Source of the DNA: a virus
Length of the DNA stretch: 64,000 nt
Direction: 5' to 3' (one strand)
IMG/VR virus record: IMGVR_UViG_3300044739_000018
Coordinates: 32,001-96,000 of that record
The notes under the pieces were generated by a model. It had not been told where the DNA came from, ran no database searches, and was given only the letters and a program-made list of their open reading frames with translations. A program made the position numbers and the translations under genes. This document shows positions 27,510-62,527 of the stretch, piece by piece; positions within the stretch are counted from its first letter, which is position 1; each line of letters starts with the position of its first letter.

Positions 27510-27962
27510 TTAGAACTCAAGACCAAACGCCTTCCGCTCTCGGCGCTTCTGTCGCCACTTCCTCATGTACTCGCGTCGTTCCTCGGTACAAGAAGGCGTG
27601 GACGGGCAGTCGGCCTTGCTGCGGCAGCCGTAGGTGTAGCCGGTGACGGTGCCGTGGGGAATCTGCTCCGCCGTGTGGTTGTGCTCACCGTTGACGCAGT
27701 TCTCATGCGAGGCACCGTGCTTTCGGTAGTCGCGTGGTGCGGGCTTGGCGAAGAACGGCTTGACCAGGTGTGAGTCGGGATCGTTGAGGATCTGGAACAC
27801 ACGTTGACGTGAGACGCCGTAAATCTTGCCGATGGCCTCCAACGTCCAGTGCTTGTCCCGCAGCAACTTCATGTGCTGGTTCCGCTCGGCTAGTTCGCGC
27901 CGTACCGCCATGACGGCATCGAACTTTGCCTGCGAAGCCAGCTCGCGATCCCGCCGATTCAC
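27510..27962 (-). CDS. HTH (sigma region-4-like) DNA-binding protein
   Basis: WTLEAIGKIYGVSRQRVFQIL; HGTVTGYTYGCR motif. Confidence 0.75.
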   Translation of the reverse strand: MNRRDRELASQAKFDAVMAVRRELAERNQHMKLLRDKHWTLEAIGKIYGVSRQRVFQILNDPDSHLVKPFFAKPAPRDYRKHGASHENCVNGEHNHTAEQIPHGTVTGYTYGCRSKADCPSTPSCTEERREYMRKWRQKRRERKAFGLEF

Positions 27963-28272
27963 TGGCCCCGAGTTACGTCACGCCAGCGGGCATCGACCTC
28001 TTTGGCCGACCCGCCGTACCGCCTGCGACGCGTTGTCTCGCCCCACCCAAAGCAAGCTGCTCCGACGCCAGCGCAGGCCCAGAAGATGATGCCGCCCACC
28101 GCGCTGGCACAGAAGATGCGGACGAGGCCGAAAGCGATCCGGCCTGCGTCAGTGGGGTTGGCCTTGGCTCCGTCCACGACGGCAACGATGCCGCCAATGA
28201 ACAGGATGTAGAAGCCCACGTAGAAGCCGAGGACGACTCCTGCGAGGATGAACAGAACTCCGAGGATGTACT

Positions 28273-28572
28273 TCACATTCTCTCCTGTCGCATGGTGGGG
28301 TCGCTCTCCATCCACCTGGGGGTCTTGGGATCTTTGGCGACGCGGGACTCCAACTCCAGCTTCGCCTGTTCGAGCCGTCGTCCGAGCGCCACGTAGTCGG
28401 TCTGCTCCTGCAACTCGCGCAGGGACTTGTCGAGGTAGTCAGACTTCTCGCGCTCCAGTGCCCACCGCTTGCGGTCCAACTCCAACTTGCGTTCCTTGGG
28501 ATGGACGATGCCGCTGTACGCGGCAGCGATGAGGGCGAGAGCGATGATGGTCAGACAGATCGTGAGAATCAT
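28273..28572 (-). CDS. Membrane-anchored coiled-coil protein
   Basis: N-terminal TM segment. Confidence 0.55.
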   Translation of the reverse strand: MILTICLTIIALALIAAAYSGIVHPKERKLELDRKRWALEREKSDYLDKSLRELQEQTDYVALGRRLEQAKLELESRVAKDPKTPRWMESDPTMRQERM

Positions 28573-28732
28573 CAGACCTCCGTGGTGTCCGCCACGAGCA
28601 GCACGGCGGGGATGATGTCGTCGATGCCGGGGTCAAGGCCGCACTCGGTGACGGGATACACGTCCAGGGCCTCCACCCAAACGGGCAGGTTTCCGTCGTG
28701 CTCCTGGAGTGCTGCGATCAGTTCGCTGACAG

Positions 28733-29113
28733 TCATGATGCCTCCTGCTCCGGGTTGGTGTCGGGAAGCTGTCCCTTCATGAGATCCTGCGCCATGCGCA
28801 GAGCCGAAGCGGCAGCGTCGTCCACTTTCTTTTCTTCCTCGGACTTCTGCTGGCCCTTCATCATTTCCTCGAACGCGGCGTTGACCTCGTCCGCGTCATC
28901 GAGGCGCTCGTGCTCAGGCGTCTGCTCCCGAGTTGCCTCGGCAGCCACCGCCTTCTGGGCGTCCTCGTCGAAGATGAACATGGCTTGGACCATGTGCGGG
29001 CCGTTGTCCATGTTCGGGAGTACTGCGAAGGTGTGCAGTTCCAGACCGGCTTCCTTTGCGACCTTCTCCAGATGCTCACAGAGCTTCTTGATCGGGTCCA
29101 TCGGGTCTGCCAA
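28733..29113 (-). CDS. Hypothetical acidic protein
   Basis: Packed ORF. Confidence 0.55.
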   Translation of the reverse strand: MADPMDPIKKLCEHLEKVAKEAGLELHTFAVLPNMDNGPHMVQAMFIFDEDAQKAVAAEATREQTPEHERLDDADEVNAAFEEMMKGQQKSEEEKKVDDAAASALRMAQDLMKGQLPDTNPEQEAS

Positions 29114-29611
29114 TTACTTCACCGCCTTTCGGGTACGGGCCTTGGGGGCCGCCTTGGGTGTGGGTGTGGGCGGAGTTTCGTCCAGCGTCGACATGTTGAT
29201 GCCGAAGATCCCAGCCAGCAATGCCGAGGTCACGGTGTGGAGCAGCTCAGCGGCGAGGCGCACCTGGGGCACATCCCTGGAGTGGTCACCGATGGCCCTC
29301 TCGATGCGGTCCAAGTCGGACTTGGCACGCTCGATCTTGCCGTGAAGCTCGATGCCCCGCTTGTTCTTCATCTGCTTGTTCTCGCTGCCGTTGATGCACT
29401 CGTCCAGAGCGACGGCAAGGTGCTGGACCGTCGTGACGAGTTCCTGAGCCTCGACGTAGGCGTTGGCGGTCGTAGTCAGCGGCGGTGGCTGGGCGATGTT
29501 GACCAGGCGGGCGAGTGCGTCAGCGAAGTCGATGGGCTTTGCGGGCGGTGTTGCGGTCGTGTCGAGGACGCCTTCGACTGCGACGACTTGTACGTCGAGA
29601 ATGACCTTCAT
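29114..29611 (-). CDS. Stand-alone paralogue of the MoxR ATPase C-terminal domain
   Basis: LDECINGSENKQMKNKRGIELHGKIERAKSDLD...LLAGIFGI nearly identical to the ATPase tail. Confidence 0.8.
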   Translation of the reverse strand: MKVILDVQVVAVEGVLDTTATPPAKPIDFADALARLVNIAQPPPLTTTANAYVEAQELVTTVQHLAVALDECINGSENKQMKNKRGIELHGKIERAKSDLDRIERAIGDHSRDVPQVRLAAELLHTVTSALLAGIFGINMSTLDETPPTPTPKAAPKARTRKAVK

Positions 29612-45450: not shown

Positions 45451-45482
45451 TGTCTCCCTGTCTCGGGTTGTAACGGTTATAG

Positions 45483-45553
45483 CAGCCCATGGGGGATTCG
45501 AACTCCCGACGCTTGGCTGAGAACCAAGTGTTTTGCCACTAAACTAATGGGCC
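45483..45553 (-). tRNA. tRNA-Glu (CUC), no encoded CCA
   Basis: Acceptor GGCCCAT/ATGGGCT; anticodon arm CTTGG-TTCTCAG-CCAAG; TTCGAAT T-loop. Confidence 0.85.
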
Positions 45554-45554
45554 T

Positions 45555-45629
45555 TGGGGTGACCACGGAGACTCGAACTCCGCCCTCGGGGACCACAACC
45601 CCGTGTGCTACCGCTAACACTATGGTCAC
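45555..45629 (-). tRNA. tRNA-His (GUG), encoded CCA
   Basis: Acceptor GTGACCA/TGGTCAC, C73, CCA; anticodon arm CGGGG-TTGTGGT-CCCCG. Confidence 0.92.
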
Positions 45630-54842: not shown

Positions 54843-55953
54843 TGTGCGGTCCCACCCTTCTTCATGCAGCATCCCGAGCTGTACTCGGGGTAGGTGCAAG
54901 GGGACGCTACCGATCCCTGAAGGGCACGTGGCACCACCTAGCGGGGACCTATGTACGGGCGCGCCGAAGCCGGGCGCTAGGCCCGGTTCCGGACGGCCGC
55001 CTACTCTCCTTCGGCGCGACTCCACATGGAGCCGTTGTACGTGCGCACCTGTCCACCCCAGACGCGTCCCCACCGCTCGCGCGGCCCGAGTGACGTGCTC
55101 TTTCGGGTAGCCATGAAGTCGAGGTCGGCCTTCGTGCTCAGCCGCGTTGCTGCCTTGGACTCACCGGCGAACGAGTTGCGTGGCGCGAACCGCAATGCCA
55201 GGGGCTGAGCGTTCACGCGTGCCTTCATGGCGCTAACCATGATGCGCACGTAGAACGAGCAGGCTGGATCAGGGCATACGCCACCCGTCCCGTGCCGGTG
55301 CGGCGCAAGGCCGCGCGGAATGAGAGCGAGGGACATAAGATCCTCCTCTTGTTTGGCCGCGTTGAACTAAGGGGACCATCCCCGACCACGGAGCGCGGTC
55401 GTTCAAAGCAGCGGCGGTTGTCTCTCCGCCTCCCGGCGTCGCAGCCGGGCACAGCCCTAGCTTAACCCAGGGCATACGGTAGTGCCAAGGATTCCCAGAT
55501 TTCGCATAAGTGCAGGTCAGAGGCCCGGGGGGGGTCCGGTATGGGCGGAATGTCCGGTTTGAATTGCTTCGCCTGGTATCCCCGTACGCAGCGAAGAAAG
55601 TCAAAAGTCTAGAGTTGACTCTAGGGTTGGCGAGTCTGAGGTCTCGTGAACGGACGTTTTGAGATCTGTTGCCAAGCACCGCAACAGGGCTGACCTGCCC
55701 GGACGCGTTCCGACAGACGCGGCTGAACAGATTTCACAAGCTCACAATCGCCAACGGACGTTCTGTGGAAATCGAACGAGAAATCAGCTAATGGCGATTT
55801 GACAGCCGCGAAGGCGCAGGTCAGGGGTTGTCAAGACCAACAAACTAGTTGGATTTGTCGTTCGATCCTATGCCAACGGACGTTGAAATGGTTTTGTCCA
55901 CTTCTCCTGGAGGAATGCTGGCGTCAGGGAGACCCGGGCTGTATTCTGCTGGG

Positions 55954-56529
55954 ATGTTCGAACGGTTCACTGACAAGGCGCGAAGGATCCTCGTTGTATC
56001 CCAGGAGGAGGCTCGCGAACTCGACCACAACTTCCTCGGAACCGAGCACATCATGTTGGCGATGCTGCACGAGGAAGACACCATCCCTCATGACGTGCTG
56101 GTCACCATGGGTGCCGACTACGAGCAGGCACAGAAGCTCGTCCGAGCAGCCGTGCCCGCGACAGGCGCGAGCGGCCAGGCTCCGTTCACGCCTCGGGCCA
56201 AGAAGGTCTTGGAACTCTCGCTGCGGGAAGCCCTCCAGCTTGGGCATAACTGGATTGGTCCCGAGCACATGATTCTCGCCTTGGTTCGTGAGGGTGACGG
56301 CATCGGTGTTGCCGTGCTGGAGCAGATGGGTCTCGACTGGGGAGTCATTCGCCAGGGCGTGATCGAGGAAGTGGGCAAGAAGCTCCCTCGTATGCCCGCA
56401 GCAAGGACTGTTACGCTGCCCCACGATGAGGCCAAGGAGCTGCGTGAATGGATTCTGCGGTTCGGCGGCTTGGTAAACCCGCTTCCCCATGCTCTGGACG
56501 CTGTATTGCGGCGCCTCAACAACCTTTAA
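55954..56529 (+). CDS. Stand-alone Clp N-terminal repeat-domain protein (ClpC N-domain-like)
   Basis: MFERFTDKARR...LGTEH and PFTPRAKKVLELSLREALQLGHNWIGPEH; no AAA domain. Confidence 0.9.
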   Translation: MFERFTDKARRILVVSQEEARELDHNFLGTEHIMLAMLHEEDTIPHDVLVTMGADYEQAQKLVRAAVPATGASGQAPFTPRAKKVLELSLREALQLGHNWIGPEHMILALVREGDGIGVAVLEQMGLDWGVIRQGVIEEVGKKLPRMPAARTVTLPHDEAKELREWILRFGGLVNPLPHALDAVLRRLNNL

Positions 56530-56631
56530 GTCAACGCAACTGGGTGTTAAGTCAACGCATCTAGCTGATACCCGGAGCATTGACTACTGTTTCACCTTAA
56601 GTCAATCCATGCCTAAAGTAGAGTCAATGCA
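56526..56631. repeat. Cluster of AGTCAA(C/T)(G/C)CA repeats
   Basis: Copies at about 56526, 56547, 56597, 56622 plus one inverted at about 56577. Confidence 0.7.
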
Positions 56632-57137
56632 TGCCTGAGTAGGCGCATTGGTATGAGTTCAGACGCTGGCATGACGTAGGCACCTTTGAAGGTGCCCTCT
56701 GTTGAGATGTGCTTGATGTCGAAGCCGTATGCCCACCCCACGAACACCACTTTGATGGGTGGAGTCAATGTCTCGACCAATGCCAGGATGTAGATGCTCT
56801 CATCATGCCGTTCTCGGGGCCGAACGGCGAGGCGATACAACTCGTGCGGCTTGCTCCTGCGCATCAACGATGTCTTCACGTCGATGCAGCCGAAGTCCGA
56901 CCCGCCATCACCGACCAACGGGTTCTTGTCGATCTCGGCGCGCCGTTGGAAGTACATCTCCTCGGCTCCCATGTACCGATGCAGTGCAAGTTCCCCGAGC
57001 TGCCCAACGAGCTGATCTTCGATCAACGAGGATTGACGGTCGTCTCCTCGGACCCAGCTCACTCCGCCAATGCAAGCGTTCTCAACGTGCGTTTGAATCC
57101 GGTCGAGCGTCTGCTTGTTGATCAGCGTGTGTATCAC
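56613..57137 (-). CDS. Putative PD-(D/E)XK nuclease-fold protein
   Basis: GQLGE helix, DGGSD...IDVKT, VGW. Confidence 0.6.
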   Translation of the reverse strand: MIHTLINKQTLDRIQTHVENACIGGVSWVRGDDRQSSLIEDQLVGQLGELALHRYMGAEEMYFQRRAEIDKNPLVGDGGSDFGCIDVKTSLMRRSKPHELYRLAVRPRERHDESIYILALVETLTPPIKVVFVGWAYGFDIKHISTEGTFKGAYVMPASELIPMRLLRHALTLL

Positions 57138-57543
57138 GGCGGATCCTCTCGATCTCTAGCTGCACGGCGAGGTCGTCAAGTTTCTCGTTGGTCTTGCGCA
57201 GCTCGATCAAGATGTTCGCGAGCAACTGCGCCGTTCCGTGGTCAGAAGTTCCCTTCGACGTGATCTCGTGGACGGCGCAGTAGTAGGAGCCGGGCGCACT
57301 GTTCGGCTCGCGGCAGAGCTTCTCCTGGCATTCGGTCGGCGGCTGCGGCACCGGGGCTGGCAGGCTCGACCGGAGCGTGTGGATCTTCGTCAGGATTTCC
57401 GGACGGGCCAGCGTCATCTTCTCGTGGGCGTACACGATGTCGAGTTCGTCGTCGTATAGCTCGGGGAGCAAGGGCAGGATCTCCGACACCCGCATGTCGT
57501 CGTAGTCCTCGATCACTATGTCCATCTTCAGTTCATCAGTCAT
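57082..57543 (-). CDS. Hypothetical protein
   Basis: IEDYDDMRVSEILPLL...E...R..IL motif; GAGG RBS abuts the array. Confidence 0.6.
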   Translation of the reverse strand: MTDELKMDIVIEDYDDMRVSEILPLLPELYDDELDIVYAHEKMTLARPEILTKIHTLRSSLPAPVPQPPTECQEKLCREPNSAPGSYYCAVHEITSKGTSDHGTAQLLANILIELRKTNEKLDDLAVQLEIERIRRDTHADQQADARPDSNAR

Positions 57544-57549
57544 CGTGCC

Positions 57550-59590
57550 TCGGATAGTCGGCGTGGGCCGGAGAGTTCCGGGTGGACCAGTCGGATGGGA
57601 GGGGTCGAGGCTAGTTGGGTCGGGGTGGGACGGGAAGTCGGTTGGCTCGGTGTGGGGCGAACTGGTTCGTCGGGCGGGGTGGGGCGGGGATGACCAGGCA
57701 TGTCAGGTGGTCCGACGCGGGGAGAAGGGGGCAGGCTGGGTTAGTCGGTAGGGCTGCTGTGGGACGGGGCGGGTAGTCGGCTGGGGACGGGTTGACTGGC
57801 ATAGGCTCGGGAAGTCGGGCAGGCCCGGGTCGGGATGGCGAGGGACGCGACGGGCTGGGGAGCGATGGGTAGGCGGGGGCAGTCGGGATGGGAGCGGGGG
57901 GACGACTCGGCTTGTCGGACAGGTGCGGAAGGGTGCGGTCTGTCGAAGCGAGTGGGGTGCGGGTCGGTGCGACAAGGTTCGTCGTAAGGGGTCGGGCCGC
58001 GCGGGGTCGGGCGGGGAGGGTTGGGTAGTCGGAGCGGGACGAGAGGGTTGGGGGCGCACCGGGGAGGGGCGGGCAGGAACGTCAGTTGGGGCGTGTTGAT
58101 GTGGCTGGGCTTGGATGGTCGGCTTGGATCGAGACGGACGGGGCGGGCAGGGGTCGGCGGGGGTAGTCGTTTGATCAGGGTCGGGTTGCGCTGGGCCGGG
58201 TAGTCGGCTTGGGTCGGGAAGGGTCGGGCGATCTTGGGTCGGCTTGTCACGTGGGAAGCGAAGGCAAGGGGTGGGTAGTCGGAATGGGATGGACAGGACT
58301 GGCCGGAATAAGGTTAGTCACTTGGACAGAGTTGTCCTGGCGAGGGGAGACAAGTCGTATGGGTTGAGACGGCTTGGGATGCAGTCGGCCAGGGACGGGT
58401 CGTCATTCGGGCAGGGGGGATTTGGCATGGCTCGGGCAGTCATGCGTCTTGGGGCGGGTGGCTTCGGGGTGGCATGTCAGATGGGGCGAAAAGGGAGGGA
58501 CGGGTGAGGTCCGGATAGTCGCGCTGGGGCGTGCGGGCACGGGACGGCATGAGTAGTCGCGTAGGTGTGAGACGGGTGGGATAGGCATGGCGTGTCATGC
58601 GGGATGGGTGGACCCGGATGGACGGGGGAGGGGGCGGGTGGGGTTGTCGTAAGGGTCGGCTCGGGAAGGCTTGCCGGGTGATCGGGCGGGCTTGGCTCGG
58701 GAAGTCGTTAGGGCCGGGAGGAGTCGGGGTGGCGAGGGTAGTCGGCCAGGATTGGTCGAGGCCGTGCCGGTATGGACCGGATAGTCGCTCGGGGCGAGAC
58801 GGAGAGCGCCGGGGTGGCATGGGTTGTCGGGGTGGGACGGCTCGGGCGGGGCAGGGTGGGGCCGGATCGGGGGGAGCCGGGCGGTGACGACTCGGGCCGG
58901 GACGGGACGTCGATGCGTGCAGGGACGCGATGGAACGGGGAGGGTAGTCAGGAGGGGATGCGAAGGGTCGGGTTGGGTAGTCGCCAGGGAGGGGGCGTCG
59001 GGGGCAGGGTCGGACGGGGTTGGGTGGTCGAGCAGGGATGCGTTGGATCGGGGAGACCTGGGAAGTCGACCGGACAGGGGCGGGCCGAGGCGCGAAGGGC
59101 TGGGGTCGGGTAGTCGAGAGGGCGGTGACGAGGTGGCTAGGGCGGGATAGTCGCGTGGCGTGGGCCGAGGCGGTACGGGTGGACCCGGGTAGTCAGACGA
59201 CTTGGGGCGGGTGGGACCGGTAAGTCGAAAGAATAGGTCTGACTAGGGAGGGGTAGTCGGATTGATTAGGAGGGCCGCGGCTGGGGGTGGTAAGGGAAGT
59301 CGGTGAGCGCGGGGTTGGGTCGACCAGGGAAGTCAGATGGTAGGGCCAGGGAAGCCGTGACTCGGGACGGGTAGTCGTGCGGGGTGGGTTGAGCTGAGGA
59401 GGCGGGGGTGGGATTGGTTGGTCAGATGGGGCAGGGGATGAAGCGCCGATGGGCTGGGCTGGGCAGGGAAGTCAGATGGGGCGGGTTGGGATGTTGAGAC
59501 GAGACGGGGGCAGGCGGGGGATGTCGGCGGGGGCAGGAGCGGGACGGCGTGGGCAGCGTTGCGACGGATTGGGGAGGGACGGGTAGTCGT
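57550..59590 (-). repeat. Non-coding pentamer-periodic array (about 48 units), candidate guide-RNA array
   Basis: G-G-S-N-N pentamers on + punctuated by about 49 GTC delimiters (mostly GGGTAGTCG/GGGAAGTCG); spacings almost all 5n+2 or 5n+3; strong G skew; no credible ORF. Confidence 0.9.
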
Positions 59591-59593
59591 GTA

Positions 59594-59669
59594 CCGGGAG
59601 TAACCCGGGTCCAAGTTGCCAAGTTCGTTGTTGCAGAACGAACGAGACCGGCTACCCCGAAGGGTAGCC
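59594..59669 (-). promoter_or_regulatory. Array leader hairpins
   Basis: GGCTACCC-TTCG-GGGTAGCC (59650-59669) and CCGGG-TTACT-CCCGG (59594-59608). Confidence 0.6.
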
Positions 59670-59705
59670 CGTCACGTTCAGCCTTTCAAGAGCAAGTTCT
59701 TTTCC

Positions 59706-59912
59706 TCAACGTTTGTTGAGAAGGCGGTGCAAGGCCCGAATGCTCTCAGGCCACTCGTCGTTGGGGAACACGTCGGACAGCGGCTCGCATGACAGCACAC
59801 GGAAGCACGCCTTCTGGCAGCGGTGATGGCACCAGCCGTCGTCCGGGCAGTGCCAGATGGTGTGCATGTCGTCGGTCGGGTCCCGGCCTACCTGCGGCGC
59901 TTCCGTTGCCAT
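59706..59912 (-). CDS. Small Cys/His-rich protein
   Basis: CPDDGWCHHRC...CFRV..CEPLS; overlaps upstream ORF. Confidence 0.55.
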   Translation of the reverse strand: MATEAPQVGRDPTDDMHTIWHCPDDGWCHHRCQKACFRVLSCEPLSDVFPNDEWPESIRALHRLLNKR

Positions 59913-60100
59913 TCTTCCCTTGCCTTCTCCAGCGTCTGGCCCTCCGACTTGCTGCCGAACCTGCGGGCAGGGTCATCGGGATCGGGGAAGACCCCGCAAC
60001 GACCACACCGCCCGGACCCATGGAATCGCACGATGGGCCAGACGGTGCAGTCGCACGCGATGAAGTCGATCCCGAAATCATCGAGCGGGTACTCGGCCAT
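59888..60100 (-). CDS. Small Cys-rich protein
   Basis: TAATG coupling to the Cas7-like stop; CDC...CGRC. Confidence 0.55.
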   Translation of the reverse strand: MAEYPLDDFGIDFIACDCTVWPIVRFHGSGRCGRCGVFPDPDDPARRFGSKSEGQTLEKAREEWQRKRRR

Positions 60101-60756
60101 TACAGCTTGGCCCACTCCACGACGGCGTACCGTCCGTAGCTCTGGCTGCGGGTGGCACCAATGCCCTGCTGCTCGCCGGTGGTCCAGAGATCGGCCCACT
60201 CGTCGTCGGAGAAGTCGAAGTCGCTTCGCACCGAGAACGGCACCTTCGCGTCCTCGACGTACTCCTCGTACTGAATGCCCGTTCCACGGAAGGTGGAGAC
60301 GAACCGCTGCTGGATGCCGGACGGCTCGGTGACGCCCAGGTGCAGGCGATCCTCGATGACGAAGATGTGCTCCGCCACGAATGCCTTCGTGCCCTTGCGG
60401 GTGGGACCCCAGCGGCGGTCAGGCCAGCGGATCGAAGCCGCCTCCTTCAACGCCGCCTTGAGCTGACGGCCCTCGATGTAGAGGCCCTCGTCGTCTCTTT
60501 TGAACCCATTGAGCTTGGTGGTCTTGACGACCTCGTCGATGGCGTCGTCCTTGACCACGCCGCGCTCCAGCATGGTCTTGGTGACCAGCTCAGAGATCAG
60601 CGCCTGGTTGTCGGCACCGAGGGTCTTCTTGATCCAGCCCTCGGCCACCTTGGGGTCGGACGGGATGCCGCCGACCAGGTGATCGACCTGGAGCACGCCG
60701 CCGAAGCGGTTCTTGTAGAGGGCGTCGCGATGCTTCTCGAACACACTGTTTGCCAT
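60100..60756 (-). CDS. Stand-alone Cas7/RAMP-superfamily protein
   Basis: GLYIEGRQLKAALKEAA aligns with the RAMP IPGxxLKGxLR motif; C-terminal Gly-rich loop GIGATRSQSYGRYAV; AAGGAG RBS. Confidence 0.82.
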   Translation of the reverse strand: MANSVFEKHRDALYKNRFGGVLQVDHLVGGIPSDPKVAEGWIKKTLGADNQALISELVTKTMLERGVVKDDAIDEVVKTTKLNGFKRDDEGLYIEGRQLKAALKEAASIRWPDRRWGPTRKGTKAFVAEHIFVIEDRLHLGVTEPSGIQQRFVSTFRGTGIQYEEYVEDAKVPFSVRSDFDFSDDEWADLWTTGEQQGIGATRSQSYGRYAVVEWAKL

Positions 60757-60777
60757 GATGTTCTCCTTACGGTTCGG

Positions 60778-61299
60778 TTAGACGGATTCCTGCGTGATGC
60801 TTTGGTACAGCCGGGTGAACTCCTCGTCGGAGATCACGTCCTTGACGGTCTTGCCGGTCGGGACCTGCTTGGCAAGCTGCTTGAAGAACATGGCCTCCAT
60901 CGAGAGCCTCGCGGCCTGGCTGCCATAGCTCGTGGCGACATAGCTCAGATCGGCGTTCGTCATGTCGCCCACCTGCCGCCTGGTGTTGCTGTCGTCGATG
61001 ACATACATCTGCGACAGCGGGTTCTCGCCCGCCCTGACCGCGGCCACGAAGTTGTCAAACTTCTCGGCACGCATGAGCTGGCGGGCCTCGGCCCGACGCT
61101 TCGCCAAGGTGTGGCTGGCGACCTCACGGAGCTGACCGAGGGCCAGGTCGTGCTGCCACTCCGACAGATGCTCCGGTGCATGCTCCTCCAGCCAAGCGAG
61201 GGCCTTCTCGGCAACCTCTCGGCTGGTGAAGTCACCATGCTCGGGGATGGCCTGCTCCACCGCGTTCTTCACGATGATCGCTGGCCGAATGTCGTCCAT
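60778..61299 (-). CDS. Helical hypothetical protein, first gene of the Cas7-like operon
   Basis: GGAGGAGG RBS; stop 21 nt upstream of the Cas7-like start. Confidence 0.7.
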   Translation of the reverse strand: MDDIRPAIIVKNAVEQAIPEHGDFTSREVAEKALAWLEEHAPEHLSEWQHDLALGQLREVASHTLAKRRAEARQLMRAEKFDNFVAAVRAGENPLSQMYVIDDSNTRRQVGDMTNADLSYVATSYGSQAARLSMEAMFFKQLAKQVPTGKTVKDVISDEEFTRLYQSITQESV

Positions 61300-61342
61300 G
61301 GTCCTCCTCCTAATTACGGTGTGGTTGGTGCTGCGGAGAGGC

Positions 61343-61371
61343 AAGGTACATCCATAAGGAGTAGAAGTCAA
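61343..61371 (-). promoter_or_regulatory. Sigma70-type promoter of the Cas7-like operon
   Basis: TTGACT-N17-TACCTT in an AT-rich patch. Confidence 0.65.
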
Positions 61372-61395
61372 GAGGCAATATGTCCAGAGACGCGA

Positions 61396-61423
61396 AGAAG
61401 GGGCCGGTTTCCCGACCCCTTCT
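61396..61423 (-). terminator. Hairpin terminator after the ParB-like gene
   Basis: AGAAGGGGTCGG-GAAA-CCGGCCCCTTCT followed by T. Confidence 0.6.
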
Positions 61424-61449
61424 AGCGCATCCTCCCGTAGAAAGGGAGA

Positions 61450-62289
61450 TCAGGTGGTCACCGGCTTGGCAACCTTGCTTGCCTTGACGATGGCCTTCTT
61501 CGTGGGCTTGGCACCGCGGAGCCGACCGTGCCGAGTGAAGGGGTCGCGCAGACGGCGACCGGAGTGCTTGTTGATGATCTTGATGAAGCTCCTCGCAAGC
61601 TCGATGTGATTGTTCGATCCGGTGACCGAACGGGTCCGAGCCTGGCTGTCCATCAAGAGGGCGCGCGGGGACTCGTTGCGCAGCGCGTCCGCGACCATGG
61701 ACGTGTCCAGGTCGGGGAAGGCGATGAGCGTCAGGGACAGGCCCTTGAGCACCCGGTCATCGAAGGCAGAGGCGAGGTTCGCCCACGCCGACGTGACGAC
61801 GTTCATCGTGCGCCGGACGGCAGTTGCGCCGCCCCGCTCGTACATCCAGTACATGGCCCGCACGGCACGGATGTTCTTGGCACCCGCGTCATTGCTGAGC
61901 TTGTAGCCGAACGACGTGATGATCTCGTCGATCTCCTTGGCCTTGGCCTCGCCAGCGAACAACTGCGCCCGGTGCCGAGCGGCGGGCGTGATGTTCTTGC
62001 GGCCCTCCTGAGCACGGACGAACAGGCTGGCCTGGTCCTGCGGGGTGTCGGGGCTGATCTGCGCCCAAGCTGTCGTGAAACCGAGGCGACGGAGCGCCTC
62101 CAGCCGGTGCTGACCGTCCCACACCCATGTCGGGGCCGAGTGGTCGTCGTGGGCGATCATCAGAACGCCCAACAGACGCGGGTCGTACTCAGCGACGATC
62201 TTCATGACCCGGCCCTCATCCAGCTCCCGCTGGTAGCCCGGATGCACACGAAGACCGCTGAGCGGAATCTCCTTGTACTGCGTGGTCAT
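61450..62289 (-). CDS. ParB/Srx-like N-terminal domain protein (DUF6551-like)
   Basis: YQREL...RV..I...YDPRLLG, WDGQHRLEAL, QASLF. Confidence 0.8.
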   Translation of the reverse strand: MTTQYKEIPLSGLRVHPGYQRELDEGRVMKIVAEYDPRLLGVLMIAHDDHSAPTWVWDGQHRLEALRRLGFTTAWAQISPDTPQDQASLFVRAQEGRKNITPAARHRAQLFAGEAKAKEIDEIITSFGYKLSNDAGAKNIRAVRAMYWMYERGGATAVRRTMNVVTSAWANLASAFDDRVLKGLSLTLIAFPDLDTSMVADALRNESPRALLMDSQARTRSVTGSNNHIELARSFIKIINKHSGRRLRDPFTRHGRLRGAKPTKKAIVKASKVAKPVTT

Positions 62290-62527
62290 TGCCGTTTCCT
62301 CCATGTTGGCGTTGTGCGGACGAGAGTAGAGCACAGGTTGATCACCGGAGTCAATACCCCCGGACAAAGATTCTTTGCCCACCGATTACAGGCCGTCAGC
62401 GGGCCTAATTTTCCATCCGAACAGCGAACTACTTCGATGTTCTTCAAGCGGGCACGGCTGGTGACCTTATGGATGGTCTTCTCAACGGTCGTTGACAGCG
62501 TTTTGCGAGAACTGTTAGAGTGTCCCG

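What the first reader, a model, noticed from the sequence alone, without database searches (positions are those of the whole stretch)
57550..59590. Array grammar: GTC delimiters with unit lengths quantised in steps of 5 nt
Counted by eye, 49 delimiters (GTC at 57557, 57590, 57637, 57669, 57702, 57744, 57776, 57814, 57882 ... 59471, 59523, 59586) give 48 intervals: 28, 32, 33, 37, 38, 42, 43, 47, 48, 52, 53, 58, 63, 68, 83, plus three exceptions (39, 39, 50). So 45 of 48 are 5n+2 or 5n+3. Example from 57814: gtc gggca ggccc gggtc gggat ggcga gggac gcgac gggct gggga gcgat gggta ggcgg gggca gtc. Units share phase and delimiter but not sequence, unlike a slippage-derived VNTR. The delimiter (YGAC-WW-CCC on minus) could be a processing site or a filament cap. 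Delimiters were chosen manually, so the tally has some selection bias.
Basis: seen in the sequence. Interest (0 to 1): 0.9.

Follow-up and report, generated by a model that had tools for sequence, protein, structure and literature searches.

The report
Phage VIPR guide-RNA array, 47 units
The 2-kb five-base-periodic array is real and is the guide-RNA array of a VIPR system, a phage-borne relative of CRISPR first described in 2026; this actinophage version is unusually large, has no long RNA tail, and seems to be read from the opposite (C-rich) strand.

Summary
Window 57557-59588 is a unique non-coding array, 52% G on the + strand, with a strong period-5 signal (lag-5 z 11.7). An objective delimiter rule (two non-G bases, then GTC) gives 47 delimiters, and 39 of 46 spacings are 5n+2 or 5n+3 (p 5e-10).

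It is not a new kind of element. It is the vrRNA array of a VIPR system (bioRxiv 10.64898/2026.04.26.720920). In those systems a minimal Cas7-like protein, Vipr, polymerises one protomer per 5-nt repeat, and the two variable bases of each repeat specify a DNA target. The Vipr gene lies at 60100-60756(-); its predicted fold matches Csm3/Cas7 with Z about 10. A conserved accessory gene lies at 60778-61299(-).

About 60 related arrays in phages and Actinomycetes prophages share the grammar and abut a vipr homologue. This scan had already met VIPR on other DNA (e1-5347379, e1-5391671, e1-5391675).

Three things differ from the characterised SUSP1 type:
- Units are contiguous, punctuated only by a 3-nt GTC/GAC, with no 40-nt tail.
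- The fixed triplet is GG(G/C), not GGY.
- Gene order, a terminator and a conserved TATACT-N6-GAC promoter-like motif indicate that the C-rich strand is transcribed. No RNA data exist to confirm this.

No targets were found.

The parts
57557..59588 (-). vrRNA array. There are 47 GTC delimiters on the + strand (GAC on the - strand), bounding 46 units of 17-97 nt, mostly 32-53 nt. Each unit consists of 3-19 pentamers G-G/A-G/C-N-N on the + strand (N-N-S-Y-C on the - strand). The full delimiter consensus is GGG-WA-GTC-GG on the + strand, which is CC-GAC-UW-CCC on the - strand.
   Evidence: Pentamer composition by position: 1 G 84%; 2 G 70% and A 16%; 3 G 57% and C 19%; 4 and 5 near uniform. The strand is assigned from indirect evidence only.
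60100..60756 (-). vipr: a 218-aa minimal Cas7-like RAMP protein, predicted to polymerise on the array RNA with one protomer per pentamer.
   Evidence: No Pfam or PHROG family. More than 1,329 homologues, all unnamed. AF2 model has pLDDT 75. The top 50 Foldseek PDB hits are all Cas7 family: Csm3, type VII Cas7, Cmr4 and Cas7-11, with E down to 6e-7. VIA-align gives Z 10.2-8.3 over about 150 residues spanning residues 12-218. Homologues abut arrays in loci that were found by DNA pattern alone.
60778..61299 (-). Candidate vap (vipr-accessory) gene. It encodes a roughly 173-aa mostly helical protein; the ORF could start as far up as 61371.
   Evidence: Homologues occur in 26 array loci, nearly always directly upstream on the same strand. 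AF2 pLDDT is 88. No convincing solved-structure match: Foldseek E >= 1.1, best VIA Z 5.3. No similarity to SUSP1 vap1.
59746..60081 (-). A 111-aa ORF between vipr and the array. It has no family and is not conserved in related loci.
   Evidence: tblastn hits only its own locus.
59643..59672 (-). GC-rich hairpin (GGGCUACCC-UUCG-GGGUAGCC) with a U-containing tail. It is terminator-like and separates vipr/p111 from the array.
   Evidence: fold z -3.1.
59661..59689 (-). Weak candidate promoter for the array transcript on the C-rich strand: TTGAAA-N17-TACCCT. The -10 hexamer overlaps the hairpin stem.
   Evidence: Read from the sequence. It was not reported by the consensus scan, so this is inference only.
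57082..57543 (-). A 153-aa gene of unknown function. Its GAGG ribosome-binding site and ATG follow the last delimiter (CCGACTATCC-GAGGCACG-ATG), so it is probably co-transcribed with the array on the - strand.

Best explanation
The array is the guide-RNA (vrRNA) array of a VIPR (Viral Interference Programmable Repeat) system carried by a 163-kb phage of Actinomycetes.

Shown here:
- A five-base repeat grammar with three constrained and two free positions.
- Strict phasing of the pentamers to a short delimiter.
- Tight, recurrent linkage of such arrays to a minimal Cas7-fold gene and one conserved accessory gene, across about 60 arrays.

Taken from the VIPR preprints:
- Vipr protomers bind one per pentamer and sequester the fixed triplet.
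- The two variable bases are presented for pairing.
- Those bases pair with double-stranded DNA while skipping every third target base, which silences rival phages, prophages or satellites.

Inferred for this locus:
- Each delimiter-bounded unit is one guide with n protomers and a target of 3n-1 bp.
- The precursor is the C-rich minus-strand RNA. It is either co-transcribed with vap and vipr or made from its own promoter.
- Each guide starts with 5'-GAC-UW, which acts as a short 5' handle in phase with the pentamers that follow. The 3-nt GAC breaks the register and so ends the upstream filament.
- Cutting at or near GAC, by an unknown enzyme, releases guides of 5n+2 to 5n+4 nt. Host RNase E is a candidate, because in mycobacteria it cuts RN|CNU in C-rich single strands.
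For: Grammar and statistics.

Vipr fold. BFVD also returns small viral RAMP proteins of phages and archaeal viruses.

Linkage:
- A DNA-pattern scan of IMG/VR, blind to proteins, returned 84 stretches. About 40 of them carry arrays of the same grammar.
- vipr homologues lie beside the arrays.
- Of 44 distinct arrays with a vipr in the locus, most abut the gene at 0 nt.
- Pooled relatives show G at -5 to -30 from the delimiter in 91 to 74% of units. Spacings are 5n+3 (296) or 5n+4 (185) out of 735.

Published description: 10.64898/2026.04.26.720920 describes Vipr plus vap plus GGY/NN pentamer vrRNAs, seven types, alternative motifs and 'staggered' tail-less arrays. 10.64898/2026.04.26.720927 shows one protomer per repeat. 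10.64898/2026.10.21.760802 identifies period-5 arrays next to Vipr-like folds, including non-canonical triplets.

Array evolution: two near-identical phages differ by exactly one 33-nt unit, so arrays change by whole units.

C-rich strand as the RNA:
- 40 of 44 arrays are C-rich on the vipr sense strand.
- The vap stop codon overlaps the first delimiter, and the last delimiter lies about 10 nt from the ribosome-binding site of the next gene.
- In L093, vipr ends in a 15-bp terminator immediately before an oppositely oriented array.
- TATACT occurs 8 times upstream of arrays on the C-rich strand, and never in the other three flank/strand classes of 62 arrays. In 7 of the 8 occurrences (6 distinct promoter regions; L051 and L080 are near-identical) it is followed by N6-GAC, which puts GAC at the predicted +1.
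- The isolated phage Mae-JY09 has vipr, then a C-rich array, then a hairpin, all on its coding strand.
- In SUSP1 the vrRNAs lie on the vipr strand.

RNase E motif: PMC10641625.
Against: - There is no RNA evidence of any kind: no transcript, no ends, no co-purification.
- Sequence similarity to the characterised SUSP1 Vipr is marginal (hhalign E 0.015, probability 3%, 52 columns around the G-loop). A profile search of the SUSP1 genome found nothing. Assignment therefore rests on fold plus context.
- The published code is GG-based with a 3' tail. On the G-rich strand, this array also looks like (GGS-NN)n followed by a 3' GTC, so motif analogy favours the opposite strand from the one I infer.
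- The SUSP1 residues that read G1 and G2 (D177, W178) align with A and S/T here. The base specificity therefore cannot be transferred.
- No natural target was found under the 1-nt-skip rule.
- Many units are short (5-7 pentamers) and contain imperfect pentamers.
Confidence: 0.85

Rival explanations
1. Same VIPR system, but with the canonical polarity. The G-rich plus strand is the vrRNA: (G-R-S-N-N)n ending in a minimal 3' handle ...GGG-WA-GUC. It would be transcribed antisense to vap and vipr.
For: The published code has GG at repeat positions 1-2 and an invariant element 3' of the repeat tract. On the + strand the phase is locked to the delimiter lying 3' of each tract and is loose at the 5' end, which mirrors that layout. 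The paper lists NNNGG-type variants.
Against: - 40 of 44 arrays would then be antisense to vipr, with no intergenic room for a promoter or terminator.
- In L093 a strong terminator blocks entry from vipr.
- The conserved TATACT-N6-GAC motif points into the array on the C-rich strand.
- Position 3 is G in 57% of pentamers, although the SUSP1 pocket excludes purines.
- GGG-N2 runs on an RNA would favour G-quadruplexes (my own inference).
Confidence: 0.3
2. The array RNA is not a set of targeting guides. It is instead a scaffold, decoy or sponge: for example it may titrate Vipr proteins of competing phages, or autoregulate vipr translation by filament growth over its ribosome-binding site.
For: No targets were found. 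Many units are short or degenerate. In most relatives the array ends about 10 nt before the vipr ribosome-binding site. Decoy and 'solo' vrRNAs that redirect a rival's Vipr are documented in E. coli (10.64898/2026.10.15.759431).
Against: All 46 units have distinct NN strings with near-uniform base use at the two free positions, as expected of a diverse guide set. A pure scaffold would not need that. In this window the array is not upstream of vipr.
Confidence: 0.1
3. The element is not RNA-based. It would be a DNA-level feature such as a G-quadruplex or R-loop-prone stretch, a Rho-loading (rut) region, or a centromere for the nearby ParB-like protein.
For: There is extreme strand asymmetry, with GGG every 5 nt. 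A ParB-like DUF6551 gene lies at 61450-62382(-). A C-rich, G-poor transcript resembles a rut site (established knowledge).
Against: None of these explains phase-locked delimiters, two free positions per pentamer, or the invariable linkage to a Cas7-fold gene in about 60 arrays. The ParB-like gene is not conserved next to arrays.
Confidence: 0.03

Closest known systems
Type II VIPR of Escherichia phage SUSP1: Vipr ALH47069.1 / YP_009199429.1, vap1 and four vrRNAs (bioRxiv 10.64898/2026.04.26.720920 and .720927)
   Same: A phage-borne locus with a roughly 200-aa single-RRM Cas7-like protein plus one small accessory gene. The flanking non-coding arrays are 5-nt repeats with three fixed and two free positions. 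There is no cas1/cas2 and no CRISPR repeats. I verified the SUSP1 layout directly.
   Different: - SUSP1 has 4 guides of 9-16 GGY-NN repeats, each with a roughly 40-nt pseudoknot tail, on the vipr strand. Here there are 46 contiguous units of 3-19 pentamers, separated only by GTC/GAC.
- The triplet here is GG(G>C), with GAC as a common alternative.
- The array is C-rich on the vipr strand.
- The G-loop residues that read the guanines are not conserved.
- The accessory protein is unrelated to vap1.
'Staggered vrRNA arrays' and non-GGY variants, mentioned but not characterised in the VIPR preprint (fig. S18; NNNGG, YNNNG, NNNNG) and in the Evo-PIN preprint (GAC/NN, CAC/NN and others)
   Same: [quoted passage not shown]
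   Different: I could read only the legends, not the figures or tables. I therefore cannot say whether this actinophage clade, its 3-nt punctuation or its strand polarity are among them. The preprint states that staggered arrays were not confirmed by sRNA-seq.
Class 1 CRISPR effector backbones (Csm3/Cmr4/Cas7) and type IV-B Csf complexes
   Same: The Cas7 fold of the protein, a filament on RNA with a fixed nucleotide step, and guide lengths quantised by the number of protomers. Type IV-B also lacks a CRISPR array and assembles on non-CRISPR RNA (PMC7937560).
   Different: The step is 5 nt, not 6. There is no 24-37-nt repeat and there are no spacers of foreign origin. There are no Cas5, Cas6, Cas10 or Cas11 genes and no adaptation genes. 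Recognition uses only 2 of every 5 guide bases.

Membership tests
VIPR system | A Vipr protein: a small stand-alone RAMP with one RRM core, a glycine-rich loop and a thumb. | tested here: met
   The 218-aa protein's AF2 model matches Csm3, type VII Cas7, Cmr4 and gRAMP over residues 12-218 (Foldseek E 6e-7; VIA Z 8.3-10.2). It has a C-terminal GxGxxRSxGxGR loop.
VIPR system | Sequence homology to a characterised Vipr (SUSP1). | tested here: inconclusive
   hhalign of the family profile against SUSP1 ALH47069.1 gives E 0.015, probability 3%, over 52 columns across the G-loop only. An HMM search of the SUSP1 genome found nothing. The preprint itself says RAMPs share little sequence similarity.
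VIPR system | Tandem 5-nt repeats with three conserved and two hypervariable positions, adjacent to vipr. | tested here: met
   for this window. for about 60 related arrays.
VIPR system | The canonical GGY triplet (pyrimidine at position 3). | tested here: not met
   Position 3 is G 57%, C 19%, T 12%, A 11%. The preprint allows 'a related consensus' in other types, so this argues against type II membership, not against VIPR membership.
VIPR system | An invariant structured 3' tail of about 40 nt after each repeat tract (SUSP1 clade). | tested here: not met
   Units are contiguous. The only shared element is the roughly 10-nt GGG-WA-GTC-GG. Rfam finds nothing, including no hammerhead.
VIPR system | A conserved vipr-accessory (vap) gene in the locus. 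| tested here: met
   The p197 family lies next to the array in 26 loci. Its identity with vap1-6 could not be tested, and it has no similarity to SUSP1 vap1.
VIPR system | A viral or proviral genomic context. | tested here: met
   The element sits in a 163-kb IMG/VR phage record with terminal repeats. Relatives occur in IMG/VR contigs and in Actinomycetes genomes.
VIPR system | vrRNAs are expressed, processed and bound by Vipr. | not testable with these tools
   This needs strand-specific small-RNA sequencing or a Vipr pull-down, which these tools cannot supply.
VIPR system | The NN dinucleotides match natural DNA targets under the 1-nt-skip rule. | tested here: inconclusive
   No match above shuffled guides in 1.1 Mb of held phage DNA, for 31 own guides and 135 pooled guides. 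Two exact 20-base patterns gave 0 hits in IMG/VR. The searches had very low power.
CRISPR-Cas | An array of identical 24-40-nt direct repeats separating unique spacers, with cas adaptation and effector genes. | tested here: not met
   There are no long direct repeats. Flanking genes have no Cas families in Pfam or PHROGs.

The most novel reading that the evidence does not exclude
This actinophage clade may be a mirror-polarity VIPR. Its guides would be C-rich RNAs that begin with a 5'-GAC-UW handle, set either by transcription initiation at GAC or by cleavage. They would be read as N-N-S-Y-C pentamers by a Vipr whose guanine-reading G-loop residues are replaced. A 3-nt frame break, rather than a folded tail, would end each filament, which allows about 47 guides to be packed head to tail in 2 kb. 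That would be a second RNA-recognition code and a new array architecture for the VIPR family.
Probability: 0.45. Interest if true: 0.7.

Novelty: new variant of a known kind. Interest (0 to 1): 0.5.

Why it matters
VIPR is a months-old discovery and has been characterised only in E. coli and Pseudomonas phages. This locus shows that a large clade uses the same five-base logic in a much denser format. The clade has more than 1,300 Vipr homologues, is common in soil phages and Actinomycetes prophages, and includes one isolated phage (Mae-JY09).

Three points would be of practical interest if confirmed:
- Dozens of guides are separated by three bases, with no folded tail.
- The transcribed strand would mean that Vipr proteins can be built to hold CC-type as well as GG-type repeats. 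That would widen the design space of this programmable DNA-binding system.
- It would bear on how guide ends are defined without Cas6-like enzymes or ribozymes.

For the scan itself, the finding should be filed as a VIPR array, not as an unknown element.

Tried and rejected
- Rfam search of 55000-62000 at E <= 1 found nothing.
- blastn of the locus against isolated phages gave only a short hit in the vipr gene of Mae-JY09.
- Pfam and PHROGs on nine flanking proteins found only a ParB-like DUF6551 at 61450-62382 and two PHROGs of unknown function.
- PDB sequence-profile search with the Vipr family gave no hit.
- A relative of p153 was sought in IMG/VR; none was found.
- p197 fold searches (Foldseek PDB and VIA wide) gave best E 1.1 and best Z 5.3, so there was no assignment.
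- Complex prediction for Vipr + p197 returned no verdict (score 0.13).
- Public sequencing runs: one DNA run, which is the probable source sample, and no RNA holder listed.
- Target search under skips 0-3, in the phage's own genome plus all held loci, found nothing above shuffled guides. The only perfect matches at skip 3 are the array matching itself.
- Two exact (xNN)10 scans of IMG/VR gave 0 hits.
- The consensus promoter scan found no sigma-70-type site around the array or in L093. The TATACT motif was found only by my own count.
- Before the VIPR lead I considered coding potential (period 5 is incompatible with codons), a TRAP-like or CsrA-like sponge, a Rho rut site, G-quadruplex DNA and a ParB centromere. 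I set these aside because of the Cas7-fold linkage.
- No supplementary tables of the VIPR preprint are held, so the VIPR type (I-VII) of this clade could not be assigned.
Full report
**The observation**

The window is bases 32001-96000 of a 163,481-bp IMG/VR phage record with terminal repeats. Between 57545 and 59600 the + strand is 52% G and 17% C. This is the only strongly GC-skewed stretch in the genome.

G positions autocorrelate at lags 5, 10 and 15 (+0.25, +0.21, +0.11). Against 500 dinucleotide-preserving shuffles, lag 5 has z = 11.7 and lag 10 has z = 9.8.

To remove selection bias I called delimiters by rule: two non-G bases followed by GTC. This gives 47 delimiters, against about 12 in shuffles. 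Of the 46 spacings, 39 are 5n+2 or 5n+3 and none is 5n+1 (binomial p = 5e-10).

A profile anchored on the delimiter shows how strict the register is. On the + strand, G occupies positions -5, -10, -15, -20 and -25 in 98, 96, 93, 89 and 83% of units. Downstream of GTC, two registers one base apart are superposed.

In-phase pentamers are G (84%), G/A (70/16%), G/C (57/19%), N, N. All units differ from one another.

**What it sits next to**

All genes around the array are on the minus strand. The 218-aa product of 60100-60756 has no Pfam or PHROG family but has more than 1,300 unnamed homologues.

Its AlphaFold model (pLDDT 75) matches only Cas7-family chains among the top 50 Foldseek PDB hits: Csm3, type VII Cas7, Cmr4 and Cas7-11. 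VIA-align gives Z up to 10.2 over about 150 residues covering the whole protein. BFVD returns a handful of small RAMP-like proteins of phages and archaeal viruses.

**Relatives**

Five IMG/VR relatives of this protein all carry a 0.5-0.9-kb array of the same grammar directly beside the gene.

A scan with a DNA pattern alone (two delimiters 20-50 nt apart) returned 84 stretches. About 40 of these hold such arrays, 0.4-2.1 kb long and about 50% G. tblastn then found the Cas7-like gene next to them. In four of five further records where the fetched piece had missed it, the gene was again flanked by arrays.

A second gene family, the homologue of 60778-61299, lies on the other side of the array in 26 loci.

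Pooled over the relatives, G at -5 to -30 from the delimiter holds in 91 to 74% of units. Spacings are mainly 5n+3 and 5n+4. The grammar is therefore a family trait, and the one-base wobble is lineage-specific.

Arrays of different phages do not align. Two near-identical phages differ by exactly one 33-nt unit, so arrays evolve by whole units.

Homologues in cellular genomes are almost all in Actinomycetes: Streptomyces, Nocardiopsis, Actinomadura and Streptosporangium.

**Identification**

Notes from earlier work in this scan pointed to VIPR systems, and I checked the papers.

The preprint 10.64898/2026.04.26.720920 describes phage-encoded loci with these features:
- A minimal RAMP (Vipr), an accessory gene (vap), and vrRNAs made of 9-16 GGY/NN pentamers followed by an invariant 3' tail.
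- NN bases that pair with double-stranded DNA while skipping every third base.
- Systems that silence rival phages and satellites.
- Seven types, with variants including alternative motifs (NNNGG, YNNNG, NNNNG), hammerhead-separated arrays and 'staggered' arrays in which one vrRNA ends where the next begins.

The structural preprint shows one Vipr protomer per repeat in a helical filament. A third preprint recovers period-5 arrays next to Vipr-like folds from sequence alone, including non-canonical triplets.

I located the SUSP1 locus myself. GGYNN tracts lie at 27618-27966 and 29164-29236, on the same strand as the two genes at 28031-29061.

The present locus has the defining parts: the protein fold, a pentamer array with 3+2 architecture, an accessory gene and a viral context. 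Sequence similarity to SUSP1 Vipr is marginal (E 0.015, G-loop only), which the preprint says is usual for RAMPs. I therefore file the array as a VIPR vrRNA array with confidence 0.85.

**How this one differs**

1. There is no tail. Units abut, and the shared element is GGG-WA-GTC-GG.
   - Read on the C-rich strand this is ...NNSCC-GAC-WWSCC-NNSCC...
   - In the 5n+3 case, this is a 3-nt GAC inserted between regular pentamers. It differs from a regular triplet (GCC, CCC, GTC) only by a purine at the middle position.
   - It is followed by U/A at the two 'free' positions.
2. The scale is large: 46 units in 2 kb, against four guides in SUSP1.
3. Position 3 is mostly G, although the SUSP1 pocket excludes purines.
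4. The accessory protein is helical. It has no solved-structure match and no similarity to vap1.

**Which strand is the RNA**

By motif analogy the G-rich strand should be the guide: GG first, with the invariant element 3' of the tract.

The genomic evidence points the other way:
- Of 44 distinct arrays with a vipr in the locus, 40 are C-rich on the vipr sense strand, and most abut the gene.
- In the common order vap-array-vipr, the vap stop codon TGA is part of the first delimiter (TGAC). The last delimiter lies about 10 nt before the vipr ribosome-binding site. This leaves no room for a promoter or terminator for an antisense transcript.
- In this window the last delimiter is likewise followed by GAGG-N4-ATG of the next gene.
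- In L093, one of the four exceptions, vipr ends in a 15-bp GC-rich hairpin plus U-run immediately before the array. The G-rich strand therefore cannot be read from vipr.
- The hexamer TATACT occurs eight times within 200 nt upstream of arrays on the C-rich strand. It never occurs in the other three flank/strand classes of 62 arrays, where about one per class is expected. In seven of the eight occurrences (six distinct promoter regions, L051 and L080 being near-identical) it reads TATACT-N6-GAC, placing GAC at the predicted transcription start.
- The isolated phage Mae-JY09 has vipr, then a C-rich array with CCGACTACCC delimiters, then a 12-bp hairpin, all on its coding strand.
- In SUSP1 the guides also share the vipr strand.
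- The SUSP1 residues that read the two guanines (D177, W178) align with Ala and Ser/Thr here.

I put about two to one on the C-rich strand. None of this is RNA data. The only public run holding the sequence is DNA.

**Mechanism, with status**

- Shown: the grammar, the phase lock and the gene linkage.
- Taken from the literature: one protomer per pentamer, a sequestered triplet, NN pairing with a one-base skip, and silencing of rival elements.
- Inferred: each unit is one guide. GAC both starts a guide and breaks the register of the filament upstream. Cleavage at GAC releases guides whose lengths step by 5 nt.
- Possible nuclease: mycobacterial RNase E cuts single-stranded C-rich RNA at RN|CNU (PMC10641625), and GA|CUW resembles that motif. 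This is a suggestion only.

**Targets**

With the NN strings of 31 units of this array and of 135 guides pooled from all held arrays, no site in the phage's own genome or in 1.1 Mb of related DNA matched better than shuffled guides at any skip. There is thus no sign of self-targeting, but also no target. Two exact 20-base patterns gave nothing in IMG/VR. The power of these searches was low.

**Verdict**

It is a VIPR guide array, a kind known since 2026 and already met by this scan on other DNA.

Its interest lies in the variant: tail-less 3-nt punctuation, very high guide density, a GG(S)/CC(S) triplet, a new accessory gene, and indirect but convergent evidence for reversed strand polarity.

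Noticed in passing
L093:3143-3157 and 660-674; also L047, L051/L080 and L067: A conserved promoter-like motif, TATACT-N6-GAC(T/C)CC, lies on the C-rich strand just upstream of stand-alone arrays. GAC falls at the predicted +1. It was found only on that flank and strand.
   Followed up: partly
L091:4742-5215 (Microcystis phage Mae-JY09, PP395641.1, 38460-38933): An isolated, publicly deposited phage carries a vipr homologue (34% identity) followed by an unannotated C-rich array with the same CCGACTACCC delimiters and a terminal hairpin. It is a ready experimental system. The DNA read at this locus looks C- and G-rich (composition not computed), which may be unexpected for a Microcystis phage.
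   Followed up: partly
L051:9500-10080 versus L080:3100-3730: Two near-identical phages differ in the array by a single 33-nt unit, which is a tandem duplicate of its neighbour. Arrays therefore grow or shrink by whole units.
   Followed up: yes
L093, L047 and L077 (one 90.8-kb contig); L067 and L080 (one 29-kb contig); L094; L040: Some phages carry two or more separate arrays around one vipr, in either orientation relative to the gene.
   Followed up: partly
window 61450-62382 (-): A ParB-like / DUF6551 protein (Pfam E 8e-12; PHROG 'ParB-like partition protein') is encoded just upstream of the vap-like gene. It is not conserved next to arrays elsewhere.
   Followed up: partly
window 45482-45629 (-): Adjacent tRNA-Glu(CUC) and tRNA-His(GUG) genes, separated by one base.
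   Followed up: no
window 59600-59700: Three consecutive hairpins lie between the 111-aa ORF and the array. The strongest is GGGCUACCC-UUCG-GGGUAGCC. They could act as a bidirectional terminator.
   Followed up: partly
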